DNA of 64,000 nucleotides, from contig CAWHEB010000002.1 of the NCBI GenBank assembly GCA_963828285.1, positions 376,297 through 440,296 on the forward strand, given 5' to 3'. The notes beneath the pieces were generated by a model. That model saw only the letters and a program-made list of their open reading frames with translations, did no database searches and had not been told where the DNA came from. This DNA is from an uncultured Chloroflexia bacterium. GTDB lineage: Bacteria; Chloroflexota; Anaerolineae; Anaerolineales; Anaerolineaceae. Shown here one piece after another: positions 3,378 through 63,556 of this stretch. Position numbers and translations under genes: made by a program. How positions within the stretch are numbered: position 1 is the first letter of the stretch; each line of letters opens with the position of its first letter.

Positions 3378-4103
3378 GTGCAGTTCAAAGAAAGAAGAAA
3401 AATGAGAGCACTTAAAAGTACCGCAAGACTTGCAGGGATCCTGTATATCATTATGGATGTATTCATGATATTCGGCGGAATGTATGTTGATGCAAGAATT
3501 TTTGTACCCGGCGATACCGTGGCCACAGTTAGTAATATTCTGGAATCTGAGTGGCTATTCCGTCTCGGCTTCGTGAGCTTTCTAGTCGGGCTAATTCTTC
3601 AATTGTATTTGGTCCATGTTTTATACGAGTTGTTTAAGTCAGTAGAAAAGGACCAAGCCAGGATGATGGTCATACTCATTGTTGCCGGTGTCTCAGTAGC
3701 TTTTATGAATATGCTAATTCAGTATGCTCCCCTTCTAATCTTAAGCAATGCCGGACATCTCTCAGCTTTCAATCCGGCCCAGTTACGATCGCTGGCGATG
3801 GTATTCCTCGATTTGTACAACGATGGGGTTCAGATTGCTGAGGTTTTCTGGGGCTTATGGCTAATTCCTCTCGGGTTGCTTGTTTACAAATCTGAATTCG
3901 TTCCAAAAATACTGGGGGTTCTGCTTTTCATTGGCTGTTTGGGGCATCTGCTCAGCTTCCTATCGACTTTCCTTTTCCCAGGGTACAGCACAATCCTCAT
4001 GCCAATTGGGGAAACCGCCATGTTTTGCGAGATGCCAATTTTCCTTTGGCTATTGATCAAAGGTATTAAAGATCAACAACGATCCACATCTCTGGCAGTT
4101 TGA
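3378..4103 (+). CDS. DUF4386 family membrane protein
   Basis: N-terminal K.TARLAGILYIIM.. and FWGLWLIPLGLLVYKS motifs typical of DUF4386. Start may be the internal Met at 3402. Confidence 0.6.
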   Translation: MQFKERRKMRALKSTARLAGILYIIMDVFMIFGGMYVDARIFVPGDTVATVSNILESEWLFRLGFVSFLVGLILQLYLVHVLYELFKSVEKDQARMMVILIVAGVSVAFMNMLIQYAPLLILSNAGHLSAFNPAQLRSLAMVFLDLYNDGVQIAEVFWGLWLIPLGLLVYKSEFVPKILGVLLFIGCLGHLLSFLSTFLFPGYSTILMPIGETAMFCEMPIFLWLLIKGIKDQQRSTSLAV

Positions 4104-14572: not shown

Positions 14573-15295
14573 ATGAAAACATACAGAATAAATGCAGTAA
14601 TGACAGGTATCCTCTACTTCCTGGGGACAGCTTTTGGGATCTCGGGTGGACTCTTAGGCGGTGATGTGCTTCAATCGCTCATTTCCGGCGTACCGTTGGT
14701 CGGTGTGGATATGCTCAGCCTCGCGGCCACCGATTCGTCCAAGCTTACATGGGGTGCTTGTTTAACCATCCTGATGGGAATTTCTCTGGTGGGGATGACG
14801 GTTTTCCTCTACCCGGTTATGAGAAAGGCGAGTAAAGAACTGGCAATGGGAATGGTCCTATTCCGCGGTGCTATCGAAGGGGTCTTCTATTTCTTATCAG
14901 CACTTAATATTTTGACATTGGTCGCCATTGGCAACCTATACATGACTGGTGGGGGAGATTCGGTTGTACTGCAGACTATAACCAATGTCTTGTATAAGTA
15001 CGCAAACCTCCAGGTCCCGGTCAGTTCCTTCATGTTTCTCATTGGGGCGATGTGTATTTACATCACCTTTTACCGCACCCGATTGATCCCGCGCTGGTTG
15101 TCTATCTGGGGCTTCATCGCCGTGGCAGCATCTCTTACTTCAGCCCTGTTGAAATTCTTTCATCTGGATACCGGCATTGGTTTCTTTCTGGAAATTGGGA
15201 GTATGTTCCCTCAGGAAATAGTCATGGCGGTCTGGTTGATCGTGAAGGGATTCAATCAATCTGCAATCACTGCCCTCTCTACCAAAACAGAATAA
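14573..15295 (+). CDS. DUF4386-like membrane protein
   Basis: 240-aa polytopic ORF beginning ..INAVMTGILYFLGTAFGI. RBS aaaggaa. Confidence 0.55.
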   Translation: MKTYRINAVMTGILYFLGTAFGISGGLLGGDVLQSLISGVPLVGVDMLSLAATDSSKLTWGACLTILMGISLVGMTVFLYPVMRKASKELAMGMVLFRGAIEGVFYFLSALNILTLVAIGNLYMTGGGDSVVLQTITNVLYKYANLQVPVSSFMFLIGAMCIYITFYRTRLIPRWLSIWGFIAVAASLTSALLKFFHLDTGIGFFLEIGSMFPQEIVMAVWLIVKGFNQSAITALSTKTE

Positions 15296-15418: not shown

Positions 15419-16285
15419 ATGAACACAAACATAAATACCGACAAAATGGATCTGAAAATTTCTTATTACGTCACAAACCGACCGCATGTGGTAAAAGAAC
15501 TGGTTTTGTTTTTTCTGATTACTTTCATGATCATGTTCGGGCTTGGTGGGCTTGGTATGGTATTTCGAAGCCAGGTTGAAAAATTATTCGGCCCTATAAG
15601 CAATAACAATTTATTTGTCATGCTCCTTATTTATGCGCCTACCATCGCGGGACTAACACTGACAATTATTTTTGAGAAATGGAGCGGCCTTGTTGCTCTA
15701 TTTAAAAGAGGCGTATTATTCACTAAACCTAAGTGGTTGTTAATTGCCATATTTATTATCCCTTTAGTTCTGCTGGTTTATGGACTTTTTACTTATCTGA
15801 CCGGAATTGGAGCAAGCTCATTTAACTGGATTGCATATTTCGGTACTTTCCCATTACTCATATTTAGTCTTAATATTTTTACCGATGCTGGTCCACTTGG
15901 GGAAGAACTAGGATGGAGGGGTTATGCTCTTCCCAGATTACTTCAACTCCATTCACCGATCGCTGCAACAAGTATTTTGTCAGTTTTCTGGACCGTATTT
16001 CATCTGGTTGCTTTTTTGTCACCAGGTACTAGGCAATCAGGAATGTCATTTGTCTGGTTTATATTGTTCGTTTTTTCTCTAGCTTTTATCATGACATGGC
16101 TTTATATGAATACCGGCGGAAACTGGATTGTTTCAGGATTATTGCAGCATTATATGATTAATTCATTCCTTATAAACGGTGCAAACGGTGCAGCAAAAGT
16201 TGACGCTGGATTATCTATTTCTCTTTGTCTTGCAGTATCAATAATATTTCTATTCAGAGGTTTTTCAACAAAAGAGCATTTATGA
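15419..16285 (+). CDS. CPBP family intramembrane glutamic endopeptidase (CAAX protease / bacteriocin-immunity type)
   Basis: Motif 1 GEELGWRGY (EExxxR), motif 2 FHLVAF (FxxxH), polytopic. Confidence 0.8.
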   Translation: MNTNINTDKMDLKISYYVTNRPHVVKELVLFFLITFMIMFGLGGLGMVFRSQVEKLFGPISNNNLFVMLLIYAPTIAGLTLTIIFEKWSGLVALFKRGVLFTKPKWLLIAIFIIPLVLLVYGLFTYLTGIGASSFNWIAYFGTFPLLIFSLNIFTDAGPLGEELGWRGYALPRLLQLHSPIAATSILSVFWTVFHLVAFLSPGTRQSGMSFVWFILFVFSLAFIMTWLYMNTGGNWIVSGLLQHYMINSFLINGANGAAKVDAGLSISLCLAVSIIFLFRGFSTKEHL

Positions 16286-18072: not shown

Positions 18073-18885
18073 ATGAAAAAACCAACAAAATTCCCCTACC
18101 AGTTTTTTGTAGTTACCTTCCTCTGGTCCTGGCTGATCTGGCTGCCACTGGTTTTGGCAGGCGCGGACATGTTGCCGCTGGAGAAAAACCTTCTTACCAC
18201 ACTGACCATACCAGTGACCATGCTGGGAGTCTTCGGTCCGGCGGCAGGAGCTATTTACTGCCTGAAGACATTGCATGGCAAAGGTGCCATTCGCGACTAC
18301 CTGCGTGGATTGTTGGACCTGCGTTTTGGCTGGAAAGCCTGGCTGATCCCCATCCTGGTCTATGGCGTCAGTACCTGGTTGGCGTGGATCCTGCCGGAAC
18401 TCTGGGGAGAACCGCGCCTGAAAATGCTTCTGCCTTCAGTCTGGGTTTTTCCACCGTATCTATTGATCATGATCGTGTTAGGCGGCGGACAGGAAGAGCT
18501 GGGCTGGCGAGGATACATTGTGGACCACATGGAAGAGAAACTCGGCACCTGGTGGGGAAATCTGGTACTCGGTGTGATCTGGACTTTCTGGCACTTACCA
18601 TTGTTCTTTATTCCAGGAGTCAGCCAACCTTACATGCATTTTGGCGGTTTTATGTTGCTGATTATCGGATACTCCTGGTTCCTGGCATGGGTTCGACAGG
18701 TCTCAGGTAAACGCACCATGGCACCATTGGTTGCCCACGGTGTTGCCAATGCGTTCATTCCCCTCTTCCCTACATTGGTGATGGTCCAGGGAGTGGAGCA
18801 GCCGCGTTTTTGGCTCTGGGTCAGTCTTTCCTTTTTGATTGGGTTGGTAACCCAGTTCCTGCGCTCACGAACACGGAAAAAATGA
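18073..18885 (+). CDS. CPBP family intramembrane metalloprotease
   Basis: GQEELGWRGY and WTFWHLP motifs. Confidence 0.8.
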   Translation: MKKPTKFPYQFFVVTFLWSWLIWLPLVLAGADMLPLEKNLLTTLTIPVTMLGVFGPAAGAIYCLKTLHGKGAIRDYLRGLLDLRFGWKAWLIPILVYGVSTWLAWILPELWGEPRLKMLLPSVWVFPPYLLIMIVLGGGQEELGWRGYIVDHMEEKLGTWWGNLVLGVIWTFWHLPLFFIPGVSQPYMHFGGFMLLIIGYSWFLAWVRQVSGKRTMAPLVAHGVANAFIPLFPTLVMVQGVEQPRFWLWVSLSFLIGLVTQFLRSRTRKK

Positions 18886-43815: not shown

Positions 43816-45096
43816 ATGTTTGACTTGAATCTGATCCGAGAAAATCCTGATTATGTTCGTGAATCGCTTCGTAAACGCCAGATGGATCCTGCTCCAGTGG
43901 ATGAGATCCTTGCACTGGATTCCAAAAGACGCTCCATCTTGATGGAAGTTGAATCCCTTAAAGCCGAGCGTAACTCTGTATCCAAAGAGATCAGCAAGAT
44001 GAAAGATCCAACAGAGCGACAGGCGAAGATCGATGCATCTCGTGAGTTGGGTGATCGTATCTCCGGGTTGGATGGCGAATTATCCACTGTCGAAGAAGCT
44101 TTGAGCGGGTTGGTGGCGCTCGTACCCAATGTACCTTCCGATCGGACCCCTTATGGCAAGGATGAACATGATAATCAAGTGATTCATACCTATAAAGAGC
44201 CCTCAGAGCTGCCTTTCCCGGCTAAGCCCCATTGGGACCTTGGACCGGAATTGGGGATTATTAATTTTGATCAGGGTATTAAGTTAACAGGGTCGAGATT
44301 TTACGTCCTCAGTGGCGCCGGCGCCAGATTGCAGCGTGCTTTGATCGCATGGATGTTGGACCTGCATATTCGTCAGGGATATACCGAGAAATATACCCCA
44401 TTCATGGTCAAGAGTGACGTTCTATTCGCCTCAGGGCAGCTTCCAAAGTTTCGGGACAATCTGTACCATGATGCAGAAGAAGACTTCTGGATGGTGCCTA
44501 CCGCTGAGGTGCCATTAACCGGTTTGCATGTAGGCGATTTCATCGAAGAAGACCAACTACCGCTCCACTATACTGCTTACACTCCCTGTTTTCGCAGGGA
44601 AAAAATGTCTGCCGGCCGGGATGTCAGAGGCATAAAACGTGGCCACCAGTTTGACAAAGTGGAAATGTACAAATTCTGTAAACCGGAAGACTCCATGGAT
44701 GAACTGGATAAAATGCTTCATGATGCCACTCAAACTGCTGAACTGCTGGGACTACCTTACCGTGTCTTACAGTTATGCACCGGCGATATTGGATTCAATG
44801 CCAGCATCACTTATGATGTAGAGGTCTGGGCTCCAGGCTGTGCAGAGTGGCTGGAAGTTTCCTCTGTCTCCAATGTGGGTGACTTTCAGGCAAGAAGGGC
44901 AAACATCAAATATCGCCCGTCAGATGGCGGTAAACCCCGCCTGGTGCATACATTGAATGGTTCAGGTCTTGGATTACCAAGGACCTTAATCGCGGTTATG
45001 GAAAATTATCAGCAACCAGACGGTTCAATTTTGATCCCGGAAGTGCTCAAACCGTGGATGGGTGGAATCGAGCGAATCTCATCGGAGAGTAAATGA
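43816..45096 (+). CDS. serS: Seryl-tRNA synthetase
   Basis: N-terminal coiled-coil [10 protein letters not shown]... Class II motifs (..FRRE..., GLGLPR). 426 aa. Confidence 0.95.
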
Positions 45097-45619: not shown

Positions 45620-45656
45620 AAAAAAGACCGGTTTTCACCGGTCTTTTGATTTATTC
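45620..45656. terminator. Bidirectional Rho-independent terminator
   Basis: AAAAAAGACCGGT-tttca-CCGGTCTTTTGATTTATT between convergent operons. Confidence 0.75.
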
Positions 45657-45666
45657 TCGTCCTACT

Positions 45667-46086
45667 TCATCCTTCTTCAGTTATCTCGTATTTGGTTTTG
45701 ATTTCTACGACTTTTGAAAGCATCGCTTGCGCTGGGCAGTATTTGGTGGATGAGAGATCAATCGCTCGTTCCACTGCCATGGGGTCTATATTTTTCCCGG
45801 ACAGCTTGTAGGTGATCATCGCTGAAGTAAATACTCTTGGATGTTCACTTGCACGCTCCGTGTGGACATCCACTTCAAACTTGGTAATTTCCTGTCGCTT
45901 CTTTTCCAGAATCGAGATCACATCCATCGCTGTACAACCAGCAAGCCCAATGGCAAACAGTTCCATCGGTTTGAAACCTTCACTAGATCCTCGATCAGGA
46001 GATCTTGATGAGAGAGGAACTGTCATCAAGCTTCCAGCAAGACCGTCGAACTCCATTCCGCCCTTCCAGTTCACTTTCGCATCCAT
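45667..46086 (-). CDS. OsmC/Ohr family peroxiredoxin-like protein
   Basis: ..LFAIGLAGCTAMDVISIL.. and second Cys CPAQAM. Confidence 0.85.
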   Translation of the reverse strand: MDAKVNWKGGMEFDGLAGSLMTVPLSSRSPDRGSSEGFKPMELFAIGLAGCTAMDVISILEKKRQEITKFEVDVHTERASEHPRVFTSAMITYKLSGKNIDPMAVERAIDLSSTKYCPAQAMLSKVVEIKTKYEITEEG

Positions 46087-46098
46087 GTTTTTCCCTCC

Positions 46099-46800
46099 TT
46101 ATTCCTTCAATACTTTGACGATCTCATCCAACAACATTACCTCTGGTCCAGAGCCGATCATCTGACCTGCATTGTGATTAATTGCAGTATGAGGTACGCC
46201 AGATACCTGATAGTCTCCGGCAAGCTTCTGGAATTCTGTAGCTTCGATCATTTCCGCTTGGACATATTGGCTTTCGAGAGCCATCGCATGAGCGAGCGTC
46301 ACGGCTCGCGGACAGTATGGTCAGGTTGGGGTGGTAAACACCTGTAACAGAATATCTTCTTTATTCTTTTTAAGGAAAGCTTTTGTTGCAGGCGAAAGCC
46401 CTGATTCTCGTGACGAAACCAATATGACGTCATTGATCAAAGATGTAAACTCATGACCGGCTGGAATACCGTAGAATCGGATTCCATAATCCACGATCTC
46501 TTCCGCATTTTTCGCAGCCAAAACTATACCCGGAGCCTTATCAACATGATATTGTTTTGCTATTTTTGCATCACCATGAAGATGTTTTACTTCCAAGCTT
46601 AGCCTTGAATCCAAAGGGACGATCTCTTCAAGGATTTGTCTCGTCTGGGCACAAAAATCACAATGTTCATCATCTTCGAAAAATAATATTTTTACAGGTT
46701 CTAATAAATTCTCAGCAAGGACATCTTTTACCTGTGTGGTAATATCTTCATTCAACATTCTTTCCATATGTTTCCCATTCTCCGCGACGCGGGGAGGCAA
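46099..46800 (-). CDS. Predicted selenoprotein: two-domain glutaredoxin-like protein disulfide oxidoreductase (PDO-like) with UxxC in the second thioredoxin unit (in-frame UGA at 46321..46323)
   Basis: ORFs 46321..46800 and 46099..46302 are in the same frame, separated only by TGA. Joined, they read ..ILLQVFTTPT-[UGA]-PYCPRAVTLAHAMALE... That aligns with the second active site of archaeal/bacterial PDO (TPTCPYCP). First unit has CDFC. Confidence 0.65.
46292..46309 (-). promoter_or_regulatory. Candidate bacterial SECIS hairpin
   Basis: mRNA: UGA-ccauacugucc-GCGAGC-cgugac-GCUCGC. The 6-bp stem starts 11 nt after UGA. The loop contains GU. Confidence 0.45.
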
Positions 46801-46806
46801 AATTTA

Positions 46807-47013
46807 TCAGGTAAAACAGCTAGCTTCAACATACCCACAGTTATCGCAGCATAAATTTAGAAAATAATCATACTTGAGATTCCCATGGTCACAAACAGGA
46901 CATGGACGTTCACCGCCATCATTCCCAAGGTCAATATCAGGGAGATTGGTAAATTCTCCTTCGCTTGTATTATCTTCATGGTTTATCTTTTTTTGAATTT
47001 CAGCCATGATCAT
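46807..47013 (-). CDS. Small Cys-rich zinc-ribbon protein
   Basis: CPVC..(18)..CCDNC motifs. Translationally coupled to the anti-sigma gene. Confidence 0.4.
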   Translation of the reverse strand: MIMAEIQKKINHEDNTSEGEFTNLPDIDLGNDGGERPCPVCDHGNLKYDYFLNLCCDNCGYVEASCFT

Positions 47014-47258
47014 TCTTTCATAAAATTAGATATATCCAACGTCTTATGCAATCTTTCAACTACTGAGTTTGGTACATGCTGGTCTTCAGCAAGTTGATGA
47101 TAAAGGGAAATGGTCTTTTTGGTCGTATCCACAACAATACGACAGTTTGTACAAGTTAATATATGTTCATCCAATTGAGCTACCAATTCAGGAGGCAGCT
47201 CACCATCAATGTAATCGGATAAACAATCGACTAATTGTTCACAACAGGGTTTATTCAT
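47010..47258 (-). CDS. Zinc-associated (ZAS) anti-sigma factor, RsrA/ChrR-like
   Basis: HxxxCxxC motif EHILTCTNCR plus N-terminal CC. Immediately downstream of the ECF sigma gene. Confidence 0.7.
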   Translation of the reverse strand: MNKPCCEQLVDCLSDYIDGELPPELVAQLDEHILTCTNCRIVVDTTKKTISLYHQLAEDQHVPNSVVERLHKTLDISNFMKE

Positions 47259-47269
47259 TTCGTACCTTC

Positions 47270-47851
47270 CTATTGGGAATCTCCAAAGTATTGCGTCAAG
47301 GATTCCCGCAATGACAACCTCGCTCTGAGTAAACGGGTTTTAACTACTTCCTCTGAGACACCCAATAATTCTGCTGTTTCCAGGATGCTCAAACCTTGAA
47401 TATCGCGCAATATGAAAACCACCTTTAATTTTTCCGATAATATTTGAATTGCTTTATCAAGTTTTACCTTTATTTCTGCACCAATAACTTTTTCCTCAGG
47501 CAGTAATTCCCACGATCTGATCTCGCGTGGTGAACTAATTTCTTCATTTTCATCCTCATCAAGCGAAGCTATGATCTGCTTCCCTTTTCGCAAAACCTGT
47601 ATGGATTCATTCACTGCGATCCGGTATATCCAGGTATAGAGAGAGGACTTTCCTTGAAAACTGCTAATACTTCGAATTACTTTGATGAATGTTTCCTGGA
47701 GGACATCTTCGGCATCGAGAGTATTTCCAGTGATATTCAACGCCAATCGATAAATCGGATCAGAGTAAACTTCGATCAGCCTATTAAATTCATCCTTATC
47801 ACCTTTAACTAACAATTCAGCCGAAATGGTTGCATCCATGATTGTATTCAT
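47270..47851 (-). CDS. ECF-subfamily RNA polymerase sigma-70 factor
   Basis: Region 2 (..DVLQETFIKVIRSI..YTWIYRIAVN..) and region 4 HTH (LSILETAELLGVSEEVVKTRLLRAR). Confidence 0.9.
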   Translation of the reverse strand: MNTIMDATISAELLVKGDKDEFNRLIEVYSDPIYRLALNITGNTLDAEDVLQETFIKVIRSISSFQGKSSLYTWIYRIAVNESIQVLRKGKQIIASLDEDENEEISSPREIRSWELLPEEKVIGAEIKVKLDKAIQILSEKLKVVFILRDIQGLSILETAELLGVSEEVVKTRLLRARLSLRESLTQYFGDSQ

Positions 47852-47874
47852 TAGATACCTATTGCTTAGAAAAG

Positions 47875-48918
47875 TTACACGGACAACAATGGCCAGGTTG
47901 GAATAGCATCCAGATCCAATGATGAAGTATGTCCATTACTGAGTCGATAAAATCCAGCGCACGCAATCATCGCGGCGTTATCTGTGCATAAAGTAATATG
48001 CGGGATGTGAACAGGGATTTGTGATTGCAATGTCATTGAATCACGCAATGCCTTATTTGCAGAAACGCCGCCTGCCAAAATAATCTCGTTTGCCTTGAAT
48101 TCTTGAGCTGCTTTCAGGGTTTTTGCAACTAGCGTATCGACAACGGCAGCTTGAAAACTCGCTGCCAGATCATTCACAGGAATGGATTCTTTGTTTTCTT
48201 GAAGATGATGGACTGTTCTCAAAACTGACGTTTTGAGTCCGCTGAAAGAAAAGTCCCATGGATTATCAAGTCTCGCTCGTGGAAAATTGAAAGCGGTCGG
48301 ACTACCATTCTCAGAAGCCTTTTGGATGGAGGGTCCACCCGGATATGATAAACCTAACAATCTAGCCACTTTATCGAATGCTTCGCCGGCTGCGTCATCC
48401 ATGGTCTTTCCGAGTTGCTTATATTGTAAATGACCAGAAATTAATATCAACTCGGAATGTCCACCTGAAACCAGGAGAGCAAGCAAAGGGAAATTGGGCT
48501 CTGTAGGAATTGGTTTACCTTCCAAAACACTTTTCTGAGTGTAAACCCATGCGGAATAAATGTGCCCTTCAAGATGATTTACACCAATAAGAGGGATATT
48601 TCTTCCAAGAGCTAAACCCTTGGCCATGTTCAAGCCGACCACAAGCGACCCAGCCAGACCTGGACCTTGCGTCACTGCGATGGCATCAATATCGTGTAAT
48701 GTCATGTGGGCTTGTTGCAATGCCTGATCCACAACACCATACACGGTTTTAATATGTTGCCGGGATGCTACCTCAGGGAACACACCTCCATATTGAACGT
48801 GAAGATCGATCTGGGATGCAACCACATTGGATAGCAACATCCGGCCATTTTCAAGAACTGCCGCAGCCGTCTCATCGCATGAGGATTCAATTCCCAAGAT
48901 TCTCATCGGGGTGTCCAT
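47875..48918 (-). CDS. tsaD: tRNA N6-adenosine threonylcarbamoyltransferase
   Basis: MRILGIESSCDETAAAV.. and metal-binding HLEGH region. Confidence 0.95.
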   Translation of the reverse strand: MDTPMRILGIESSCDETAAAVLENGRMLLSNVVASQIDLHVQYGGVFPEVASRQHIKTVYGVVDQALQQAHMTLHDIDAIAVTQGPGLAGSLVVGLNMAKGLALGRNIPLIGVNHLEGHIYSAWVYTQKSVLEGKPIPTEPNFPLLALLVSGGHSELILISGHLQYKQLGKTMDDAAGEAFDKVARLLGLSYPGGPSIQKASENGSPTAFNFPRARLDNPWDFSFSGLKTSVLRTVHHLQENKESIPVNDLAASFQAAVVDTLVAKTLKAAQEFKANEIILAGGVSANKALRDSMTLQSQIPVHIPHITLCTDNAAMIACAGFYRLSNGHTSSLDLDAIPTWPLLSV

Positions 48919-48919
48919 A

Positions 48920-50158
48920 TCATTTTCCTTTTACTGGAATGACTAGATCCATCGGATACTCAACAAACCGTTGGATTGCGCCATCAGCTGTTACATAGAA
49001 GGTATCCTCAAGTCTGACACCAAATCCATTTTCTGGATAATACAAACCGGGTTCAATAGTAAACACCATACCTGGAGTTAGATTATCTTCTGCAGGCATG
49101 AATTGACTGAACCACGGTCCTTCGTGGACGCGTAATCCAAGCCCATGACCAAGACTGTGGTTATATCCATTGGTTGTATTGGGATCTTTTGCTATCGTTA
49201 CATGTCCCATGGATTCAAATAGTTCGCAGGTTCGCTGCTGGTATACCTGGCAAAGTACACCTGTCTTCAGTTCTCCGAGGATGGTGTCGTACACAGATTT
49301 CACTTGGTCGTAATGCTTTTGAATTTCAGGGGTGGCATACCCCAGGCACCAGGTTCTGGTGAAATCGTAAAAATAACCCCCACCTTTTTCACAGGGAAAG
49401 ATGTCGAAAACGATTGTTTGTCCAGCTCGCAGTTGATCTGATGTTGTACCGGAAGAATGACCGATCCCGGCATCACGGCCGATTGAAAAGATTGTCCCTT
49501 CCGGGTTTTCCGCGCCTGCTTCAGCAAGCCATAGATCGATCCGTGATTTCACGTCACCTACTGTAATTGCATTACCTTTCTCATTGACTAATACTCCATC
49601 TCTCAAACAATTAGAGGACAAGTATTGTTGGACTTTTCCAACCACATTTACGGTAACCTCACCCATTCTTCTAATACGGTCTATTTCATCTGGTCTTTTA
49701 AGAATCGCTGAAGCATCCAATACAGATTTATCCATTTCACCAGTTAATATCAAGCCTGGCATTATTGCCTTCAATTCATTTAATACCGCCCAATCGTGAG
49801 TCAGATCCACTTGACCATACAATCCAACTTTCCCAGTGGTAAGTTGATACTTTTCCAGATAGTGTTTAAGCAAGAGAGCACTCCCCTTTGCTTTATTATC
49901 CGGGTGTTCTTTCATAAACTTGATCAATATCTCAAAATCGAAAGTATCCACTAACAGACCCGACCTGGCGGCTTCTTCACGTTCCATACTGTTTGCCACC
50001 AATACAGGGGCAGATCCATATTTCTTAATCAGCATTGCATTGGTAAAATGGCCCCCGCCGGTAAGATAAACCATGGATGGATTATGATCGCCATTTCCAA
50101 AAACGATGATTCCTTCCATATCCTTTAATTTAAGTAATTGATCAAGATCAGTATTCAA
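48920..50158 (-). CDS. M24-family Xaa-Pro aminopeptidase/prolidase-like peptidase
   Basis: Pita-bread fold motifs (..HGLGHGLGLRVHEGP.., ..TIEPGLY..). Confidence 0.8.
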   Translation of the reverse strand: MNTDLDQLLKLKDMEGIIVFGNGDHNPSMVYLTGGGHFTNAMLIKKYGSAPVLVANSMEREEAARSGLLVDTFDFEILIKFMKEHPDNKAKGSALLLKHYLEKYQLTTGKVGLYGQVDLTHDWAVLNELKAIMPGLILTGEMDKSVLDASAILKRPDEIDRIRRMGEVTVNVVGKVQQYLSSNCLRDGVLVNEKGNAITVGDVKSRIDLWLAEAGAENPEGTIFSIGRDAGIGHSSGTTSDQLRAGQTIVFDIFPCEKGGGYFYDFTRTWCLGYATPEIQKHYDQVKSVYDTILGELKTGVLCQVYQQRTCELFESMGHVTIAKDPNTTNGYNHSLGHGLGLRVHEGPWFSQFMPAEDNLTPGMVFTIEPGLYYPENGFGVRLEDTFYVTADGAIQRFVEYPMDLVIPVKGK

Positions 50159-51515
50159 AGTAACCCTCCGTCTTCATAAGTCGTATCGTCGCAATCAGTT
50201 CGTTTTCCTGTTCTGCAAAGATTGTTCTGGGATCCAATACCAGTTCGTCATGATCGATCCTCCCAATGACTGGAGGATCAGCTGACCGTAATCGTTTCAT
50301 ACATTTTTGCGGATTCTTGGGCTTGATTGTCAGCAACCATGTAGGAAGCGTATCACCTGGAAGACTACCTCCACCTACAGTGGAAAAACCGGAAGTGATC
50401 CGTCCAAATCCCAACTCGGTCTGCCATTCTTCAGCCTTTTTTTGAATATCAGTCGCGGATTTCGAGATCATTGACCATACAGGGATATCAGATAAAGCTG
50501 TTCCGCGAAGATAATCAATCACTGTTGCGTGTAAAGCGCTCAAGCAGAGTTTATCAGCCCGGACTGCTCTGGCTAATGGATGGCGTTTGACTTTATCGAG
50601 AAGTATCTTTTTTCCCAGGATGATCCCTGCTTGAGGGCCACCCAATAATTTGTCACCGCTGAAACAGATCACATCTACTCCAGCAGATATGGATTCCTGT
50701 ACCATGGGTTCATGCGATAATCCGAATTCTTTGGTGTCGAGAAGCGCCCCGGAACCAAGATCATCAATGAAAATTGCACCATACCGGTGGGCAAGTTCAA
50801 CCAAATCGATTAATTCGGGTTCGCTTGTGTAACCGATGATTTTAAAATTTGACGAATGAGCCCTGACAACGATCTTGGCACCTTCGATCAGTTTGTCTTC
50901 GTAATCGTCCAGGTGAACCTGATTTGTGGTCCCCACTTCGATCAGTTTTACACCTGATTGCCGCATCACATCAGGGATTCGAAATCCGCCACCAATTTCA
51001 ACTAGTTGACTGCGTGAGATGATCGCTTTTTTTCGGTTTCCTAGCGAGGTTAATACTAATAGCACAGCTGCAGCGTTGTTATTGACAACCAGAGCTGCTT
51101 CAGCATGAGTTAATTGAGTCAATACCTGATTCAGATGGTCGTGGCGGGAGCCACGGGTCCCTTTATCTAGATCAAATTCGAGCGAGGAATATCCTATTGA
51201 TGTCTCGCGTACCCTATACAATGCCTCCAGGCTTATGGGCGCCCTTCCTAAATTAGTATGGAGAATCACGCCAGAAGCATTGATGACTGGACTCAGCGTT
51301 GGCATTGTCCACTTTGTTAATATTTTTCTGATTGTTGAAATGATGGCAGGTTTTTCGGAAGAAAACATAACCTTCTCGTTACGCATATCATCCAGAACAT
51401 GGCGGGCAGCTTCAACAGTCAGGTTATGTCCGAATTCCGCAACCAGTTTTCCACACTCTGCTTCGTTGAGAATAGTTTCAATGGATGGCAGAGTGCGAAG
51501 ATCATTCATTTTCAT
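50148..51515 (-). CDS. selA: L-seryl-tRNA(Sec) selenium transferase
   Basis: PLP-lysine signature FSGDKLLGGPQAGIILGKK. SelA-length (455 aa). N-terminal LPSIETIL region. Confidence 0.9.
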   Translation of the reverse strand: MKMNDLRTLPSIETILNEAECGKLVAEFGHNLTVEAARHVLDDMRNEKVMFSSEKPAIISTIRKILTKWTMPTLSPVINASGVILHTNLGRAPISLEALYRVRETSIGYSSLEFDLDKGTRGSRHDHLNQVLTQLTHAEAALVVNNNAAAVLLVLTSLGNRKKAIISRSQLVEIGGGFRIPDVMRQSGVKLIEVGTTNQVHLDDYEDKLIEGAKIVVRAHSSNFKIIGYTSEPELIDLVELAHRYGAIFIDDLGSGALLDTKEFGLSHEPMVQESISAGVDVICFSGDKLLGGPQAGIILGKKILLDKVKRHPLARAVRADKLCLSALHATVIDYLRGTALSDIPVWSMISKSATDIQKKAEEWQTELGFGRITSGFSTVGGGSLPGDTLPTWLLTIKPKNPQKCMKRLRSADPPVIGRIDHDELVLDPRTIFAEQENELIATIRLMKTEGYFEY

Positions 51516-53700: not shown

Positions 53701-54417
53701 CTAACCCTGGGTTTCTAAAGGTTCAGCGATGATAAATAACCTTCCCCATGAAGGTTCACCATCTTTGGCAACGCAAGTTTGAAGGACCAGATGGGGTTCT
53801 CCCTGATACATTTTTTGGAAGAGCTGCCCTGCGGTGATTTGTTCTTCTGATTCCAAGTCAACGAACTTTGATGATGTGCTATTCGGTGAAAGCGCCTGGA
53901 ATTGGTTTATGGATGTCACAACATACTGTGTTCCCAAACCATCCCCATTTGCCACTGTGATTACATCACCCTGTACGACCGAACTGAAACTGCTGCCCGC
54001 CAGGTAGTTGTGTGCCAATAAGCCAATTACGCCGTAATCGGATGCGGGAGCAAATTGAGTAACTACTCCCTGAATTGTTGAAACAAAACCTGCCTGTCCG
54101 GTTGGTTGCTGAACAATACGGAGGGCGAAAGTATCCTCCAGATAGATCCCTTTAAGTACTGTTTCATCTGTATCAAGAGCTAAAATGAATTCTGTAACCG
54201 AGATATTCGGAGCCAGTGATGATACTAATGTTGTTGTACTATCTGTGACAGGGATAACAGAAGCCGATACTGCTGAAATCGGAAAAACACTCATCAGTAA
54301 GATTGCTGAAAGTGAAGAAATTTGAATTAATTTACGCAAAAGACTTGTCATCGTATCCTTTGATGACAAGGGCATTGAGATTTCTCGGGATTGAAAGGAG
54401 GGGAGGAGGAAATTCAC
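53701..54417 (-). CDS. Sortase-family transpeptidase
   Basis: Signal/TM anchor. Catalytic His (LAHNYLAG), TLxTC-type Cys motif (HLVLQTCVA), conserved Arg downstream (WGRLF). Confidence 0.65.
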   Translation of the reverse strand: MNFLLPSFQSREISMPLSSKDTMTSLLRKLIQISSLSAILLMSVFPISAVSASVIPVTDSTTTLVSSLAPNISVTEFILALDTDETVLKGIYLEDTFALRIVQQPTGQAGFVSTIQGVVTQFAPASDYGVIGLLAHNYLAGSSFSSVVQGDVITVANGDGLGTQYVVTSINQFQALSPNSTSSKFVDLESEEQITAGQLFQKMYQGEPHLVLQTCVAKDGEPSWGRLFIIAEPLETQG

Positions 54418-54863
54418 CGCAGACGAAGGTTCGGCGGCTTGGCAATCATGGCTGGAAACTCCCCAACTTTAGATCCATAGCTTTGCGACCCCGGTTTTCA
54501 CCAGGTGTGCCCTTGTCGGTCATTCGTTTGTAAATGTGCGAGTTGTTTCGTTAGTAAGATTATAGGTTAGGCGTGCGTTAGGTTTAGGATATACACCTTA
54601 CAAGAACCTTACAAAACGGTTGAGTCTAATATATTAAGCATATTTGCATCATCTTTGTCTAATTTCAACCAATTCCTTATCCTATATCGGAAAAATAAAG
54701 TGGAATTTTTCTTTAAGTACACATTATGCAAACATTCTCCATTCGTGTTGCATTTGTCTGACATTTGGATATATAATTTTATTGATTAGCGATAAATCTG
54801 CCTGAAAGTTATAAATATCCAAGAACAAAATCCTTATCAAGTAGACGAAAGGAATAAAAATCC

Positions 54864-60637: not shown

Positions 60638-61444
60638 ATGTGGAATTGGATTAAGCAATTATTCTCAAAACAACCTATTAATACCAAAGAACCGGATGAA
60701 CCAGCAGTAGGGAATTCCCGGTCATTGATCAACAGGCAGACCTCCGACGTGGAAGTAAACCCAAAGCCGGTCATCATCACTACCCAAAAAGATCTGGATA
60801 CGGGATCTACGGACACCACTGTTGTGAATCGAAAGTTTCTGGATCAAAAAGAAGCTCAAGCATATATAACCAAGGTCAAATCGAAACTGGCTTCCCTTGC
60901 AGATCGTTTCTCAAGGGGAGATATCAACCGGACCCAGTTTCAAGAGTTGTATGGTCATTACCAATCCGAAATTCTAAACATCGAATTGAGTCTCGCAGCA
61001 GACCCGGGTGGTGAGCAATGGAAAAAAGGAATTAAAGAAGGGCAATCCATGCTGCTTCGGCACCGACTGACCGCACAGGCAATTGGATTCGCTATATACG
61101 ATATTCAAACAGGTATGCCATTAAAAAGCCTGGGGAACTTCCGGGTGGATCCGGCATTATTTGTGCCCATGTTGTCCGCCTATCAGTCTGCAACCACTGA
61201 GATCTTCGGCGGGGGAATCCGTTCGACTGAAATAGAAACCGGACGGTGGTTGTGTTTCATCCCAGGTAAGCGCACTACAACATTAGCGCTCTTTACCATG
61301 GAACCTGCCAGCCGGCAGCTTCGAGTACTCGAAGAATTGCAGTCCATTTTCGAAGATGCAAACGCCAAGCATCTGCAAACTTCGATCATCGATGCAGATG
61401 CGCTTGTCTGTCCACACGAATACTACCTTAAGCACCTGATATAA
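60638..61444 (+). CDS. Roadblock/LC7 (MglB-like) domain protein with ~130-aa N-terminal extension
   Basis: C-terminal half ..AIGFAIYDIQTGMPLKSLG..SAYQSATTEIFGG..ETGRWLCFIPGKRTTTLALFTM.. resembles Roadblock/LC7. 10-nt gap to the GTPase gene. Confidence 0.5.
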   Translation: MWNWIKQLFSKQPINTKEPDEPAVGNSRSLINRQTSDVEVNPKPVIITTQKDLDTGSTDTTVVNRKFLDQKEAQAYITKVKSKLASLADRFSRGDINRTQFQELYGHYQSEILNIELSLAADPGGEQWKKGIKEGQSMLLRHRLTAQAIGFAIYDIQTGMPLKSLGNFRVDPALFVPMLSAYQSATTEIFGGGIRSTEIETGRWLCFIPGKRTTTLALFTMEPASRQLRVLEELQSIFEDANAKHLQTSIIDADALVCPHEYYLKHLI

Positions 61445-61453
61445 TCAGGCGGT

Positions 61454-61960
61454 ATGAGTGATATCCCATTATACAAAGTGATCATCGCCGGCGATGGTGC
61501 GGTTGGTAAAACCTCGCTTGTTCGCCAGTATTGTGAAGGGAAATTTGATACTTCCAGGGTGATGACCATTGGGGTGGACTTTCAAACTCACGTTGTGGAT
61601 CTTCCCGAAGGCAAAGTCAAATTATCCATTTGGGATATGGCAGGTCAGGATAGATTCGCTGTTGTCCGAACCAGTTTCTATCGGGGTGCAAGGGCATGTG
61701 CCCTGGTATATGACCTTACTGTGGAAGATAGTCTGGAGCATGTATCCCGATGGTATCTGGAGATCCATGAAGTCCTACCGGATGTACCTTTTTTACTTAT
61801 AGGCAACAAGCTCGACCTTGTCTCGGACCCAGATATAACTATCGCCAGAAAATTTGCTGAAATCATTCATGCTCCATTGATCTTAACCAGTGCGGCAACC
61901 GGTATTGGTGTTCCTGAAATGTTTGAACACCTTGCACGTCTTCCCCATAAAATCTCTTAA
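61454..61960 (+). CDS. Ras/Rab-like small GTPase
   Basis: G1 GDGAVGKTS, G2 TIGVDF, G3 WDMAGQDRF, G4 GNKLD, G5 TSAATG. Confidence 0.8.
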   Translation: MSDIPLYKVIIAGDGAVGKTSLVRQYCEGKFDTSRVMTIGVDFQTHVVDLPEGKVKLSIWDMAGQDRFAVVRTSFYRGARACALVYDLTVEDSLEHVSRWYLEIHEVLPDVPFLLIGNKLDLVSDPDITIARKFAEIIHAPLILTSAATGIGVPEMFEHLARLPHKIS

Positions 61961-62302: not shown

Positions 62303-63556
62303 ATGGCTGATAATGATGTAACTCGAATTGCAGGTAATATTGGCGCTATGAACGCGCTGAATGCTCTGACCGTGATCAACAAACAACTTTCGGTCCATCA
62401 GAGCCGCCTGGCGACAGGCAAACGCATCAACTCCGCAGCTGATGATCCCGCCGGTCTGACAATCGCTACCAAAATGTTAGCCCGCTCCGAAGGTTTGAAA
62501 GTCGCCCTCGGTAACATCGCTGATGCCAAGAACTTGCTGTCCGTTGCCGAATCTGGCTTGGGCCGGATCAACGACATCCTGGTTCAGATGCGTAACAAAG
62601 CGGAAGCCGGCGCTTCGGATACCATGGGTACTTCTGAACGAAAAGCCCTGGTCGACCAGATGCAGGCTTATTCAAAACAAATTGATGATGTCGTTGGCCA
62701 GACCAAATGGACCAGCGGAACCGCTGGAAGCAGCTTGATCGATGGTACTTACTTAAGCACCGCCCTCACCTTCCAGACCGGTGTTGATCAGGGTAACACC
62801 ACCACCCTCAACGGTTTGGCTGATATGCGCGCCAGCAACGGTGCCGGCTCACTCGATATCGCCCAGTCCGTCGCCGCAGCCCGCTCCACCGCCAATAACA
62901 GTGGCGCTGTCGTTTCTTCAATGGCACACGCAGCATGCAATAGTAATCTTACCGAATTGTCTTCCGGAACTTACCGTGTAGCTGTTGATTACGGTGCCGA
63001 TGGTACGACCGCACAGGTTCAACTCTTCGCCCTTGGCTCCAGCTCCCCGTTGTTCATCGACTCCGATAACAACTTCACTACTGAACCCATCAATACTTCC
63101 GTCACCGTCAACCTCAGTGGTGGCAATGTCTCAGTTGACTTTGGGAATGGCTTGATCGCGACCGTAGCCCAGGGAGTCACTGGCACCGCATCCGGTACTG
63201 TGGATTATTCCAAGAGTGGTGGAACCTACGAACTGAAATCAAGCGTTGGCGTCATCACTGAGAACTCCTCAGCCGCTGACTTCGCCACCTACATGAATGA
63301 CATCAGCAACAAGCTCGATGTTGTCTCCCGCCAATTGGCCCAGATCGGCTCCATGAACGGTCGCTTAACCTTCAAAGAAGATCAGATCTCTGAATCTCAG
63401 ATCAACGTCGAAGGCGCTTACAACCGTATCATGAACGCCAACATGGCCGAAGAACAGGTGAACGCTTCCAAGTTCCTCATCCTGCAGCAGACCGCTACCG
63501 CGATGTTAGCTCAGGCCAATGCCGCACCCCAGTTCCTCCTATCCCTCTTCAGATAG
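62303..63556 (+). CDS. fliC: Flagellin
   Basis: N-terminal D0/D1 (..QSRLATGKRINSAADDPAGLTIATKM..). C-terminal D1/D0 (..GSMNGRLTFKEDQISESQINVEGAYNRIMNANMAEEQVNASKFLILQQTATAMLAQANAAPQ..). Confidence 0.9.
   Translation: MADNDVTRIAGNIGAMNALNALTVINKQLSVHQSRLATGKRINSAADDPAGLTIATKMLARSEGLKVALGNIADAKNLLSVAESGLGRINDILVQMRNKAEAGASDTMGTSERKALVDQMQAYSKQIDDVVGQTKWTSGTAGSSLIDGTYLSTALTFQTGVDQGNTTTLNGLADMRASNGAGSLDIAQSVAAARSTANNSGAVVSSMAHAACNSNLTELSSGTYRVAVDYGADGTTAQVQLFALGSSSPLFIDSDNNFTTEPINTSVTVNLSGGNVSVDFGNGLIATVAQGVTGTASGTVDYSKSGGTYELKSSVGVITENSSAADFATYMNDISNKLDVVSRQLAQIGSMNGRLTFKEDQISESQINVEGAYNRIMNANMAEEQVNASKFLILQQTATAMLAQANAAPQFLLSLFR

What the first reader, a model, noticed from the sequence alone, without database searches (positions are those of the whole stretch)
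46099..46800. Predicted UxxC selenoprotein: PDO/glutaredoxin-like oxidoreductase with in-frame UGA and SECIS-like hairpin
Two ORFs on the minus strand share one frame and are separated by a single TGA at 46321..46323. Read through, the product is a 233-aa two-domain PDO-like protein. The first unit has CDFC. The second reads TPT-[UGA]-PYCP, the exact position of the N-terminal Cys of CPYC in characterised PDOs. A 6-bp hairpin GCGAGC-cgugac-GCUCGC begins 11 nt after UGA, which is the canonical bacterial SECIS spacing, and has GU in the loop. selA lies at 50148..51515 and serS at 43816..45096. The gene sits in an ECF-sigma / ZAS anti-sigma operon. Standard gene callers would truncate it at the UGA and report two fragments.
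Basis: partly seen in the sequence, partly recalled or inferred. Interest (0 to 1): 0.9.

Follow-up and report, generated by a model that had tools for sequence, protein, structure and literature searches.

The report
Selenocysteine disulfide oxidoreductase gene, known family
The in-frame TGA is very probably a real selenocysteine codon in a two-domain disulfide oxidoreductase, with a conserved recoding hairpin just after it. This selenoprotein family has been known since 2004, so the gene is a correctly spotted but mis-annotated new member and not a new kind of thing.

Summary
One minus-strand gene (46767..46099, 222 codons) is interrupted only by TGA at 46323..46321, in the context TPT-UGA-PYC. 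A 6-bp hairpin, GCGAGC-CGUGAC-GCUCGC, starts 11 nt after the UGA.

In 80 orthologous loci from Anaerolineae/Chloroflexota genomes, 29 carry TGA at this exact codon and 51 carry TGC or TGT. All six stem pairs form in 26 of 28 TGA genes tested and in 0 of 49 Cys genes (Fisher p = 1.6e-18). There are compensatory changes, and the loop is CGUG in 27 of 28. The reading frame after the TGA is as long and as conserved as in the Cys forms. TGA is otherwise the commonest ordinary stop in the window. An intact selA lies 3.8 kb upstream.

It is not new. The joined protein scores above the cut-off of NCBIfam TIGR02187, "PDO_seleno_TRX". [quoted passage not shown]

- The start is ATG 46767, not TTG 46800.
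- The link to selA is shared synteny that Cys forms also have.
- selB, selD and tRNA-Sec are not in the window.

One addition: the gene lies in a conserved operon (ECF sigma, ZAS anti-sigma, small Cys-rich ORF, PDO, OsmC) that has its own ECF-type promoter.

The parts
46099..46767 (-). [quoted passage not shown] 222 codons including Sec149, ATG start, TAA stop.
   Evidence: sequence and translation. TIGR02187 PDO_seleno_TRX, 255 bits against a cut-off of 185. N-terminus MERMLN shared with homologs. PfPDO 1A8L, E = 3.9e-40; pLDDT 94.6, TM 0.91-0.92 to 2AYT and 1A8L.
46321..46323 (-). UGA read as selenocysteine (residue 149). It is the first position of the C-terminal redox motif U-P-Y-C.
   Evidence: aligned with Cys in all 18 closest homologs. 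TGA in 29 and TGC/TGT in 51 of 80 orthologous loci. TGA is otherwise an ordinary stop, ending 16 of 38 window genes.
46312..46323 (-). UPYC redox motif of the C-terminal thioredoxin-fold unit (Sec149, Cys152).
   Evidence: In the model it lies between strand 139-145 and helix 152-165.
46651..46662 (-). CDFC motif of the N-terminal thioredoxin-fold unit (Cys36, Cys39).
   Evidence: Both Cys are invariant in the 19-sequence alignment.
46292..46309 (-). SECIS hairpin: 6-bp stem GCGAGC/GCUCGC with loop CGUGAC. It starts 11 nt after the UGA, and the loop starts 17 nt after it.
   Evidence: 6 of 6 pairs in 26 of 28 TGA genes and 0 of 49 Cys genes; 97.6% paired, pair 17:30 covaries as GC, AU or CG. 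Fisher p = 1.6e-18.: -9.4 kcal/mol; meets the bSECIS model constraints; the same hairpin is present in L015 and L049.
45667..46086 (-). OsmC-family peroxidase-like gene, 12 nt downstream of the PDO gene. Last gene of the operon.
   Evidence: PF02566, E = 2.1e-19; an OsmC homolog lies downstream of PDO in 68 of 76 related loci.
45622..45647 (.). Palindromic terminator-like hairpin between the convergent OsmC and DUF456 genes. Likely end of the operon.
   Evidence: 11-bp stem, with T runs on both sides.
46807..47013 (-). Small Cys-rich ORF of 68 aa (CPxC ... CxxC ... CFT at the end) between the anti-sigma and PDO genes. No family match.
   Evidence: no hits; homolog at the same place in 18 related loci. 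L003 5738..5947.
47010..47258 (-). Soluble ZAS-type anti-sigma factor of 82 aa, with H32-x3-C36-x2-C39 and N-terminal Cys residues.
   Evidence: zf-HC2, E = 7.9e-11; weak RsrA-like match, 29.9 bits, below the cut-off of 62.5; conserved next to the sigma gene in 60 of 76 loci.
47270..47851 (-). ECF-family sigma-70 factor.
   Evidence: Sigma70_r2 and r4_2. TIGR02937, 113.9 bits against a cut-off of 42.9; present in 62 of 76 loci.
47850..47880 (-). ECF-type promoter-like motif gtGTAACTTTT-N14-TATCTAA, directly upstream of the sigma gene. The tsaD stop codon lies inside its -35 element.
   Evidence: the same bipartite motif lies upstream of the sigma gene in most related loci; strict motif in 44 of 80 loci. 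PWM score 25.5, the only hit of 14 or more in the 64-kb window.
50148..51515 (-). selA, L-seryl-tRNA(Sec) selenium transferase. Intact. It shows the genome carries Sec-synthesis machinery.
   Evidence: PF03841, E = 6e-130. TIGR00474, 524.7 bits against a cut-off of 267.9.

Best explanation

Proposed decoding mechanism: during translation the UGA at 46323..46321 is decoded as selenocysteine. The mRNA hairpin 11 nt downstream (6-bp stem, loop CGUGAC) recruits SelB carrying Sec-tRNA(Sec). That tRNA is charged by SerRS and converted by the SelA encoded 3.8 kb upstream.

Proposed chemistry: Sec149 replaces the attacking Cys of the C-terminal CPYC site, giving UPYC. This site would cycle between a selenolate/thiol state and a selenenylsulfide. 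It is the site that, in AhpF and the archaeal PDOs, takes electrons from a thioredoxin-reductase-type flavoprotein and passes them to a client.

Proposed regulation and role: the gene is co-transcribed with an ECF sigma factor, a soluble ZAS anti-sigma factor, a small Cys-rich protein and an OsmC-family peroxidase, from an ECF-type promoter at 47880..47850. The module is therefore most likely a thiol-oxidative-stress regulon, with the PDO keeping OsmC and/or other oxidised proteins reduced.

Shown here:
- the gene structure;
- the Sec/Cys pairing across species;
- selection for the hairpin in TGA forms only;
- the PDO fold;
- conservation of the operon and its promoter motif.

Inferred:
- actual Sec insertion;
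- SelB binding;
- the identity of the electron donor and of the client (OsmC);
- redox sensing by the anti-sigma factor.
For: Family membership and fold:
- TIGR02187 'PDO_seleno_TRX', 255 bits against a cut-off of 185.
- PfPDO 1A8L, E = 3.9e-40, with CPYC aligned to the U site.
- AF2 model pLDDT 94.6. TM 0.91-0.92 to the PDOs 2AYT and 1A8L, and 0.83 to the AhpF N-terminal domain 5H29.

Sec/Cys pair:
- All 18 closest full-length homologs have Cys at the TGA column.
- Of 80 orthologous genome loci, 29 carry TGA and 51 carry TGC or TGT.

SECIS:
- All 6 pairs form in 26 of 28 TGA genes and in 0 of 49 Cys genes, p = 1.6e-18.
- 97.6% of cells are paired, against 19-52% when the 3' partners are slid by 1-3 columns. 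There are compensatory G-C to A-U and C-G changes.
- Synonymous codons are fixed only in TGA forms. Ala GCC is used in 27 of 28 TGA genes against 8 of 49 Cys genes. Leu CUC is used in 20 of 28 against 7 of 49.
- The hairpin satisfies the published bSECIS limits of loop 3-9 nt, stem 4-16 bp, G in the first two loop positions, 16-37 nt from UGA to loop, and MFE of -7.5 or lower (PMC13188914). Here the values are 6 nt, 6 bp, CGU..., 17 nt and -9.4 kcal/mol.

The downstream part is translated:
- 72-80 open codons follow the TGA in all 28 TGA genes measured.
- C-terminal identity is 0.644 in Sec forms and 0.645 in Cys forms.

Not a code change: TGA ends 16 of 38 family-matched genes in the window.

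Not a one-off error: the identical truncated 148-aa product occurs on three contigs from different sources.

Sec machinery: intact selA, TIGR00474, 525 bits.

Operon:
- Gaps of 39 nt or less between the genes from sigma to OsmC.
- A terminator-like hairpin only after OsmC.
- The order sigma, anti-sigma, PDO, OsmC is conserved in most of 76 loci.
- A conserved ECF-type promoter motif.
- Extra thiol-redox genes sit in the same cluster in L003.

Literature: the family is listed as a UxxC selenoprotein 'predicted with high confidence' (PMC13188914; PMC9312934; PMC1794560).
Against: - selB, selD and tRNA-Sec are not in the 64-kb window. The rest of the genome could not be read, so completeness of the Sec machinery is inferred from selA alone.
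- No experimental evidence exists for Sec insertion in this gene. According to the 2026 review the family is still classed as 'predicted'.
- The stem is short (6 bp). In longer sequence contexts its pairing probability falls to 0.25-0.5.
- The apparent lower stem is a by-product of the coding sequence: 78.6% paired in Sec forms against 87.5% in Cys forms.
- The window has no second promoter motif directly upstream of the PDO gene, unlike at least 13 related loci.
- The OsmC client and the flavoprotein donor are guesses from gene order and from what is known of AhpF and PDO.
Confidence: 0.88

Rival explanations
1. The gene is a pseudogene, or the TGA is a sequencing or assembly error. A TGC/TGT Cys codon has become, or was misread as, TGA, and only a dead 148-residue fragment is made.
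For: Public gene calls record only the 148-aa fragment (P0002). The closest full-length relatives at 63-65% identity all have Cys. A single base change turns TGC or TGT into TGA.
Against: The same TGA is present in 29 other species. The downstream frame is intact and as conserved as in Cys forms. The hairpin is kept only in TGA forms, p = 1.6e-18. The identical truncated product occurs on three independent contigs.
Confidence: 0.03
2. The UGA is recoded or read through, but not as selenocysteine. Possibilities are near-cognate Trp or Cys insertion, or a regulated balance between a truncated and a full-length product. In that case the hairpin would act as a general read-through stimulator.
For: selB, selD and tRNA-Sec were not found in the window. 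The stem is short, and no experiment exists for this family.
Against: The UGA sits exactly at the catalytic Cys of a CxxC site, which is the classic Sec/Cys position. An intact selA, which has no known role other than Sec synthesis, lies in the same gene string. The hairpin fits the bSECIS model in spacing and has the GU loop. The family is a recognised selenoprotein family.
Confidence: 0.06
3. Two separate polypeptides are made: an N-terminal 148-residue single thioredoxin-fold protein ending at TGA, and a separately initiated C-terminal 67-residue protein.
For: ORF listing gives two ORFs. The second could start at GTG 46302.
Against: The GTG lies in the hairpin loop, and no Shine-Dalgarno-like sequence precedes it or the next two ATGs. 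The 67-residue piece would lack strand 1 and the first redox residue of its fold. Cys-form orthologs are single 220-230-residue proteins. The frame is never shifted between the two halves in the 28 TGA genes measured.
Confidence: 0.02

Closest known systems
[quoted passage not shown] UxxC motif, example ABB15282.1 from Carboxydothermus hydrogenoformans (Kryukov and Gladyshev 2004, as listed in PMC13188914, PMC9312934 and PMC1794560).
   Same: The same HMM family, scored above its cut-off. The same UxxC motif in the C-terminal thioredoxin-fold unit. The same Sec/Cys pairing with Cys homologs. A SECIS immediately downstream of the UGA inside the coding region.
   Different: The host lineage. The 2006 survey found the family in only two bacterial genomes, Carboxydothermus and Symbiobacterium. 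Here it is in 29 of 80 Anaerolineae/Chloroflexota species loci, embedded in an ECF sigma / anti-sigma / OsmC operon. I could not fetch the founding members to compare their SECIS elements or their gene context.
Archaeal and Aquifex protein disulfide oxidoreductases: PfPDO 1A8L, PhPDO 1J08, Aquifex aeolicus 2AYT/2YWM, Aeropyrum pernix 2HLS.
   Same: About 225 residues, two fused thioredoxin folds, CxxC in the N unit and CPYC in the C unit. E = 3.9e-40 to 1e-22. TM 0.89-0.92, rmsd 1.2-1.7 A.
   Different: The solved proteins all have Cys at the site (CPYC). Here the first residue is Sec. They come from hyperthermophiles, whereas this genome has 46% G+C and comes from an uncultured Anaerolineae-type bacterium.
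N-terminal domain of alkyl hydroperoxide reductase subunit F: AhpF 1HYU, 1ZYN, 4O5Q; E. faecalis 5H29.
   Same: The same double thioredoxin fold (TM 0.71-0.84; TIGR03140, E = 4.4e-17). In AhpF the redox-active CxxC is in the second unit, which is the unit that carries Sec here. By established knowledge, that domain shuttles electrons from a TrxR-like flavoprotein module to a peroxidase. This suggests an analogous PDO-to-OsmC relay here.
   Different: This is a free-standing protein with no fused FAD/NADH module. Its scores are far below the AhpF cut-offs (62 bits against 503). The N unit keeps its own CxxC. The neighbouring peroxidase is OsmC, not AhpC.
SigR-RsrA type thiol-stress regulons (ECF sigma plus ZAS anti-sigma controlling thioredoxin-system genes).
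   Same: An ECF sigma gene followed by a small soluble anti-sigma with H-x3-C-x2-C. Thioredoxin-fold and peroxidase genes in the same unit. An autoregulatory ECF-type promoter.
   Different: The anti-sigma scores only 29.9 bits on the RsrA model, against a cut-off of 62.5, so it is not an RsrA ortholog. Redox sensing is untested. The promoter consensus TGTAACTTTT-N-CATCTAA was derived here from sequence alone.
Escherichia coli fdhF-type bacterial SECIS and the bSECISearch consensus model.
   Same: The hairpin is inside the coding region, its stem begins 11 nt after the UGA, and the small apical loop has G followed by U near its 5' side. All four published model constraints are met.
   Different: It is much shorter than the about 40-nt fdhF element: only a 6-bp stem with no conserved bulged U, and no Sec-specific lower stem. 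SelB binding is untested.

Membership tests
[quoted passage not shown] | Full-length match to the family HMM above the curated cut-off | tested here: met
   255.1 bits against a cut-off of 185. Residues 7-218 match profile positions 2-208 of 209. Sec was written as Cys in the query.
[quoted passage not shown] | UxxC motif: an in-frame UGA aligned with the first Cys of the C-terminal CxxC of Cys-containing homologs | tested here: met
   TPT-UGA-PYC. Cys in 18 of 18 aligned homologs. TGC/TGT in 51 and TGA in 29 of 80 loci.
[quoted passage not shown] | [quoted passage not shown] | tested here: met
   72-80 open codons after the TGA in all 28 TGA genes measured. C-terminal identity 0.644, against 0.645 in Cys forms.
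Bacterial selenoprotein gene (general) | bSECIS element downstream of the UGA: loop 3-9 nt, stem 4-16 bp, G in the first two loop positions, 16-37 nt from UGA to loop, MFE of -7.5 kcal/mol or lower | tested here: met
   Model taken from PMC13188914. Here: loop 6 nt (CGUGAC), stem 6 bp, 17 nt, -9.4 kcal/mol. Conserved only in TGA forms.
Bacterial selenoprotein gene (general) | The genome encodes the Sec-decoding machinery: selA, selB, selC (tRNA-Sec), selD | tested here: inconclusive
   selA is present and intact. No tRNA in the window, no Rfam tRNA-Sec hit, and no SelB or SelD domains in any ORF of about 170 aa or more that was scanned.
Bacterial selenoprotein gene (general) | Sec is actually incorporated (75Se labelling or mass spectrometry) | not testable with these tools
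   This needs an experiment. The 2026 review lists the family under 'predicted with high confidence'.
PDO structural family (PfPDO-like) | Two fused thioredoxin folds in about 225 residues, with a CxxC in each unit | tested here: met
   two beta-alpha-beta-alpha-beta-beta-alpha units, pLDDT 94.6. TM 0.91-0.92 to 2AYT and 1A8L. C36/C39 and U149/C152.
AhpF (alkyl hydroperoxide reductase subunit F) | N-terminal double thioredoxin fold fused to a TrxR-like FAD/NAD(P)H module of about 520 residues | tested here: not met
   TIGR03140, 61.8 bits against a cut-off of 502.9. The protein ends at residue 222 and has no flavoprotein module. It is homologous to the domain only.
RsrA (mycothiol-system anti-sigma-R factor) | Match to TIGR03988 above the cut-off | tested here: not met
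   29.9 bits against a cut-off of 62.5. The generic ZAS motif H-x3-C-x2-C is present (zf-HC2, E = 7.9e-11). It is therefore a ZAS-type anti-sigma but not an RsrA ortholog.

The most novel reading that the evidence does not exclude
In Anaerolineae the PDO selenoprotein may be the ancestral form of a class-wide, ECF-sigma/ZAS-controlled thiol-stress module (sigma, anti-sigma, small zinc-ribbon-like protein, PDO, OsmC). In that reading the Sec-PDO is the dedicated reductant of the OsmC peroxidase, giving a selenium-dependent, free-standing analogue of the AhpF-AhpC relay. The Sec form would then have been replaced by Cys many times independently: at least 20 Sec/Cys changes on a neighbour-joining tree of 77 sequences, while all Sec forms share one homologous minimal 6-bp SECIS. 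That would make this one of the densest natural Sec/Cys replacement series available for asking what selenium buys a thiol oxidoreductase.
Probability: 0.3. Interest if true: 0.5.

Novelty: new member of a known kind. Interest (0 to 1): 0.3.

Why it matters
There are three practical points.

1. The public gene call for this genome is wrong. It records a 148-residue fragment where a 222-residue selenoprotein is encoded. The same error probably affects the other TGA-form loci found here.

2. The comparison gives an unusually clean natural control for a bacterial SECIS. There are 28-30 TGA genes and about 50 Cys genes of one orthologous family, and the 6-bp hairpin is kept only where the UGA is. 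That defines a minimal SECIS (stem 6 bp, loop CGUGNN, 11-nt spacer) which could be tested directly.

3. The conserved ECF sigma / ZAS anti-sigma / PDO / OsmC operon and its promoter motif give a testable hypothesis for what this 'predicted' selenoprotein family does in vivo.

None of this changes what is known in principle. The family, the UxxC motif and the decoding mechanism were described in 2004-2006.

Tried and rejected
- The single-sequence MFE fold of 46270..46330 gave a longer alternative hairpin (GAGCCGU/AUGGCUC). I rejected it because only 57% of cells pair across the 28 TGA genes, no better than shuffles.
- A lower stem (CCAU.CUG / CAG.AUGG) that would extend the SECIS towards the UGA looked attractive in several folds. 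I rejected it as evidence because it pairs at least as well in Cys forms (87.5% against 78.6%). It is a by-product of the P-Y-C...Q-M-A coding sequence.
- selA proximity as a specific link to the selenoprotein gene. I rejected this because the same string (membrane protein, selA, M24, tsaD, sigma) precedes Cys-form genes too: 10 of 49 loci, against 7 of 27.
- A search for tRNA-Sec, selB and selD found nothing. There is no tRNA in the window or in 39 related loci, no Rfam tRNA-Sec, and no SelB or SelD domains in 40 window ORFs.
- Genome-wide TGA reassignment was rejected. TGA ends 16 of 38 genes.
- Other selenoprotein genes in the window. There are 65 TGA codons with at least 40 open codons on each side, 20 of them in a redox-like context. 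Judged by coordinates, the others appear to lie outside the frames of family-matched genes. This was not checked case by case.
- A classical GGAAC/TGAAC...CGT ECF promoter pattern upstream of the sigma genes matched only 3 of 52 loci. The real conserved motif turned out to be TGTAACTTTT...CATCTAA.
- Name and accession look-up for the truncated product gave no name. The window's SelA sequence is not in that collection under this exact start.
- The founding paper (PMC1299047) is not held. The family history is therefore cited through the reviews.
- The look-up of encoding contigs returned gene tables but no DNA for the two Logan contigs.
Full report
**1. The observation**

On the minus strand, one reading frame runs from 46800 to 46099 and is interrupted only by TGA at 46323..46321. 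The context is VFTTPT-TGA-PYCPRAVTLAH. The N-terminal half carries CDFC.

Eleven nucleotides after the UGA comes GCGAGC-CGUGAC-GCUCGC, at 46309..46292. Every homolog starts at the equivalent of MERMLN. The start is therefore ATG 46767, preceded by GGAG, and the product has 222 residues, not 233.

**2. What the protein is**

I wrote Cys at the UGA and scanned the joined sequence.

- It scores 255 bits on NCBIfam TIGR02187, an equivalog model with a cut-off of 185 that NCBI names "PDO_seleno_TRX, protein disulfide oxidoreductase". It has weaker domain-level matches to AhpF.
- Pfam sees thioredoxin and glutaredoxin domains in the C-terminal unit.
- Against solved structures it matches Pyrococcus furiosus PDO 1A8L at E = 3.9e-40, with CPYC of 1A8L aligned on the U-P-Y-C site.
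- An AlphaFold2 model built on 19 sequences has pLDDT 94.6 and shows two thioredoxin folds. Residue 149 lies between strand 139-145 and helix 152-165.
- Foldseek gives TM 0.91-0.92 to the PDOs of Aquifex (2AYT) and Pyrococcus (1A8L), and 0.83 to an AhpF N-terminal domain.

**3. Is the TGA a selenocysteine codon?**

A search of the protein database returned more than 3,400 relatives. The closest full-length ones, at 52-65% identity, are from Anaerolineae and other Chloroflexota. All 18 that I aligned have Cys at the TGA column, and the sequence after it is strongly conserved. The window's own product is on record only as a 148-residue fragment, P0002. That fragment is seen on a 1.63-Mb NCBI contig and on contigs assembled from two other sequencing runs. 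This argues against a one-off base error.

The decisive evidence comes from DNA. A scan of one genome per species returned 80 orthologous loci. At the aligned codon 29 have TGA and 51 have TGC or TGT.

In the TGA genes the frame stays open for 72-80 further codons. The C-terminal part is as conserved as in the Cys genes, with mean pairwise identity 0.644 against 0.645. TGA is not reassigned in this genome. It is the commonest stop among 38 family-matched genes of the window, ending 16 of them.

**4. The hairpin**

The six stem pairs are all formed in 26 of 28 TGA genes (window included) and in 0 of 49 Cys genes. Fisher's exact test gives p = 1.6e-18. The two further TGA loci, L015 and L049, also have the perfect stem.

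Across the 28 TGA genes, 97.6% of cells are paired, against 19-52% when the 3' partners are slid by 1-3 columns. The middle pair covaries: G-C in 20, A-U in 5, C-G in 2. For example, an Arg-to-Gln change (CGA to CAA) is matched by a synonymous Leu change (CUC to CUU).

The loop begins CGUG in 27 of 28. Synonymous positions that are free in Cys forms are fixed in TGA forms. Ala GCC is used in 27 of 28 TGA genes against 8 of 49 Cys genes, and Leu CUC in 20 of 28 against 7 of 49.

The element meets each constraint of the published bacterial SECIS model (PMC13188914):

| Constraint | Model | Here |
|---|---|---|
| Apical loop | 3-9 nt | 6 nt |
| Upper stem | 4-16 bp | 6 bp |
| G in first two loop positions | required | CGU... 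|
| UGA to apical loop | 16-37 nt | 17 nt |
| MFE | -7.5 kcal/mol or lower | -9.4 kcal/mol |

Two other structures were considered and dropped. The longer MFE hairpin is not conserved. A lower stem pairs as well in Cys forms as in Sec forms.

**5. Sec machinery**

selA at 50148..51515 is intact: TIGR00474, 525 bits against a cut-off of 268. No tRNA, no Rfam tRNA-Sec, and no SelB or SelD domains are in the window. The rest of the genome cannot be read with these tools.

The string of membrane protein, selA, M24 peptidase and tsaD upstream of the sigma gene is found next to 7 of 27 TGA-form and 10 of 49 Cys-form genes. The neighbourhood therefore shows that the lineage keeps Sec machinery. It does not show that selA is coupled to this particular gene.

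**6. Context and likely function**

From the sigma gene to OsmC, the genes are separated by 39 nt or less:

- ECF sigma, 47851..47270
- ZAS-type soluble anti-sigma, 47258..47010, with H32-x3-C36-x2-C39 (zf-HC2, E = 7.9e-11)
- a 68-residue Cys-rich ORF, 47013..46807
- the PDO gene
- OsmC, 46086..45667

The only terminator-like hairpin follows OsmC, at 45622..45647. The order sigma, anti-sigma, PDO, OsmC is conserved in most of 76 loci, in Sec and Cys forms alike.

A bipartite motif, TGTAACTTTT-N12-14-(G)CATCTAA, lies directly upstream of the sigma gene in most loci. In the window it sits at 47880..47850 and is the only match in 64 kb (PWM score 25.5). At least 13 loci have a second copy just upstream of the small ORF or of the PDO gene. 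In L003 the same cluster also holds a Grx-like protein, a TlpA-like thioredoxin and a rhodanese.

Two steps here rest on established knowledge, not on a test made here. In AhpF, the second thioredoxin-fold unit carries the redox-active CxxC that relays electrons from a flavoprotein to a peroxidase. Archaeal PDOs are reduced by thioredoxin reductase.

Taken together, the most likely reading is a thiol-oxidative-stress regulon. In it, the UPYC site of the PDO is reduced by a TrxR-type enzyme and keeps OsmC and/or other oxidised proteins reduced. That functional chain is inference.

**7. Comparison with what is known**

[quoted passage not shown] The motif is UxxC and the example is ABB15282.1. 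The family is credited to Kryukov and Gladyshev 2004 and classed as "predicted with high confidence" (PMC13188914; PMC9312934).

The 2006 survey found it in Carboxydothermus hydrogenoformans and Symbiobacterium thermophilum, and counted three selenoproteins in all of Chloroflexi (PMC1794560). The 2026 review also reports the family in Asgard archaea. A full-text search found no paper that describes it in Anaerolineae.

The gene is therefore a new member of a known selenoprotein family. What may be new in detail:

- its frequency in Anaerolineae (29 of 80 species loci);
- the minimal conserved SECIS;
- the sigma/anti-sigma/OsmC operon;
- the strong interleaving of Sec and Cys forms on a protein tree, with at least 20 changes by Fitch parsimony on a neighbour-joining tree. 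That tree is rough, so the number is only indicative.

**8. Verdict**

- Novelty is low: a new member of a known kind.
- Confidence that this is a genuine selenoprotein gene is about 0.88. The remaining doubt is the unverified rest of the Sec machinery and the lack of any experiment.
- Interest is 0.3. The value lies in correcting the annotation, and in a clean comparative data set for a minimal bacterial SECIS and for Sec/Cys exchange.

Noticed in passing
window 47850..47880 (-), and upstream of the sigma genes in L002-L080: Conserved ECF-type promoter-like motif TGTAACTTTT-N12-14-(G)CATCTAA. In the window the tsaD stop codon lies inside the -35 element. The -10 element abuts the annotated ATG of the sigma gene, so the true start may be the second ATG at 47839..47837, with a very short leader or none. 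At least 13 related loci have a second copy upstream of the small ORF or the PDO gene. The window has none.
   Followed up: partly
window 46807..47013 (-); L003 5738..5947: A 68-residue Cys-rich ORF with no Pfam or NCBIfam match, conserved between the anti-sigma and PDO genes in 18 related loci. The pattern is CPxC ... LNLxCxxC ... and a C-terminal CFT, which looks like a small zinc-ribbon or redox protein.
   Followed up: partly
L003 6694..8823: In some relatives, extra thiol-redox genes sit between the PDO and OsmC genes: a Grx-like protein with CSYC, a 124-residue protein of unknown family, a membrane-anchored TlpA-like thioredoxin with WCPPC, and a rhodanese after OsmC.
   Followed up: no
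window 54429..54520 (-): c-di-GMP-I-GGC riboswitch aptamer (RF03167, 63.4 bits against a gathering score of 59, E = 1.3e-12). It lies just upstream of a 238-residue ORF (53701..54417, minus strand) that has no Pfam match.
   Followed up: no
window 61454..61960 (+) and 62303..63556 (+): A bacterial Ras-family small GTPase (PF00071, E = 7.8e-43) lies next to a 268-residue ORF with no family match (60638..61444) and is followed by a flagellin gene.
   Followed up: no
window 37..2130 (+) and 11287..14022 (+); 3378..4103 and 14573..15295; 15419..16285 and 18073..18885: Duplicated gene sets in the first 19 kb: two MalT-like LuxR-family regulators, two DUF4386 proteins and two Rce1-like CAAX protease-family proteins.
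   Followed up: no
L001-L080 (tree): Sec and Cys forms of the PDO are interleaved throughout the protein tree, for example L002 (Sec) next to L001 (Cys) and L027 (Sec) next to L033 (Cys). Sixteen Cys-form genes keep 5 of the 6 stem pairs, possibly as remnants of a lost SECIS.
   Followed up: partly
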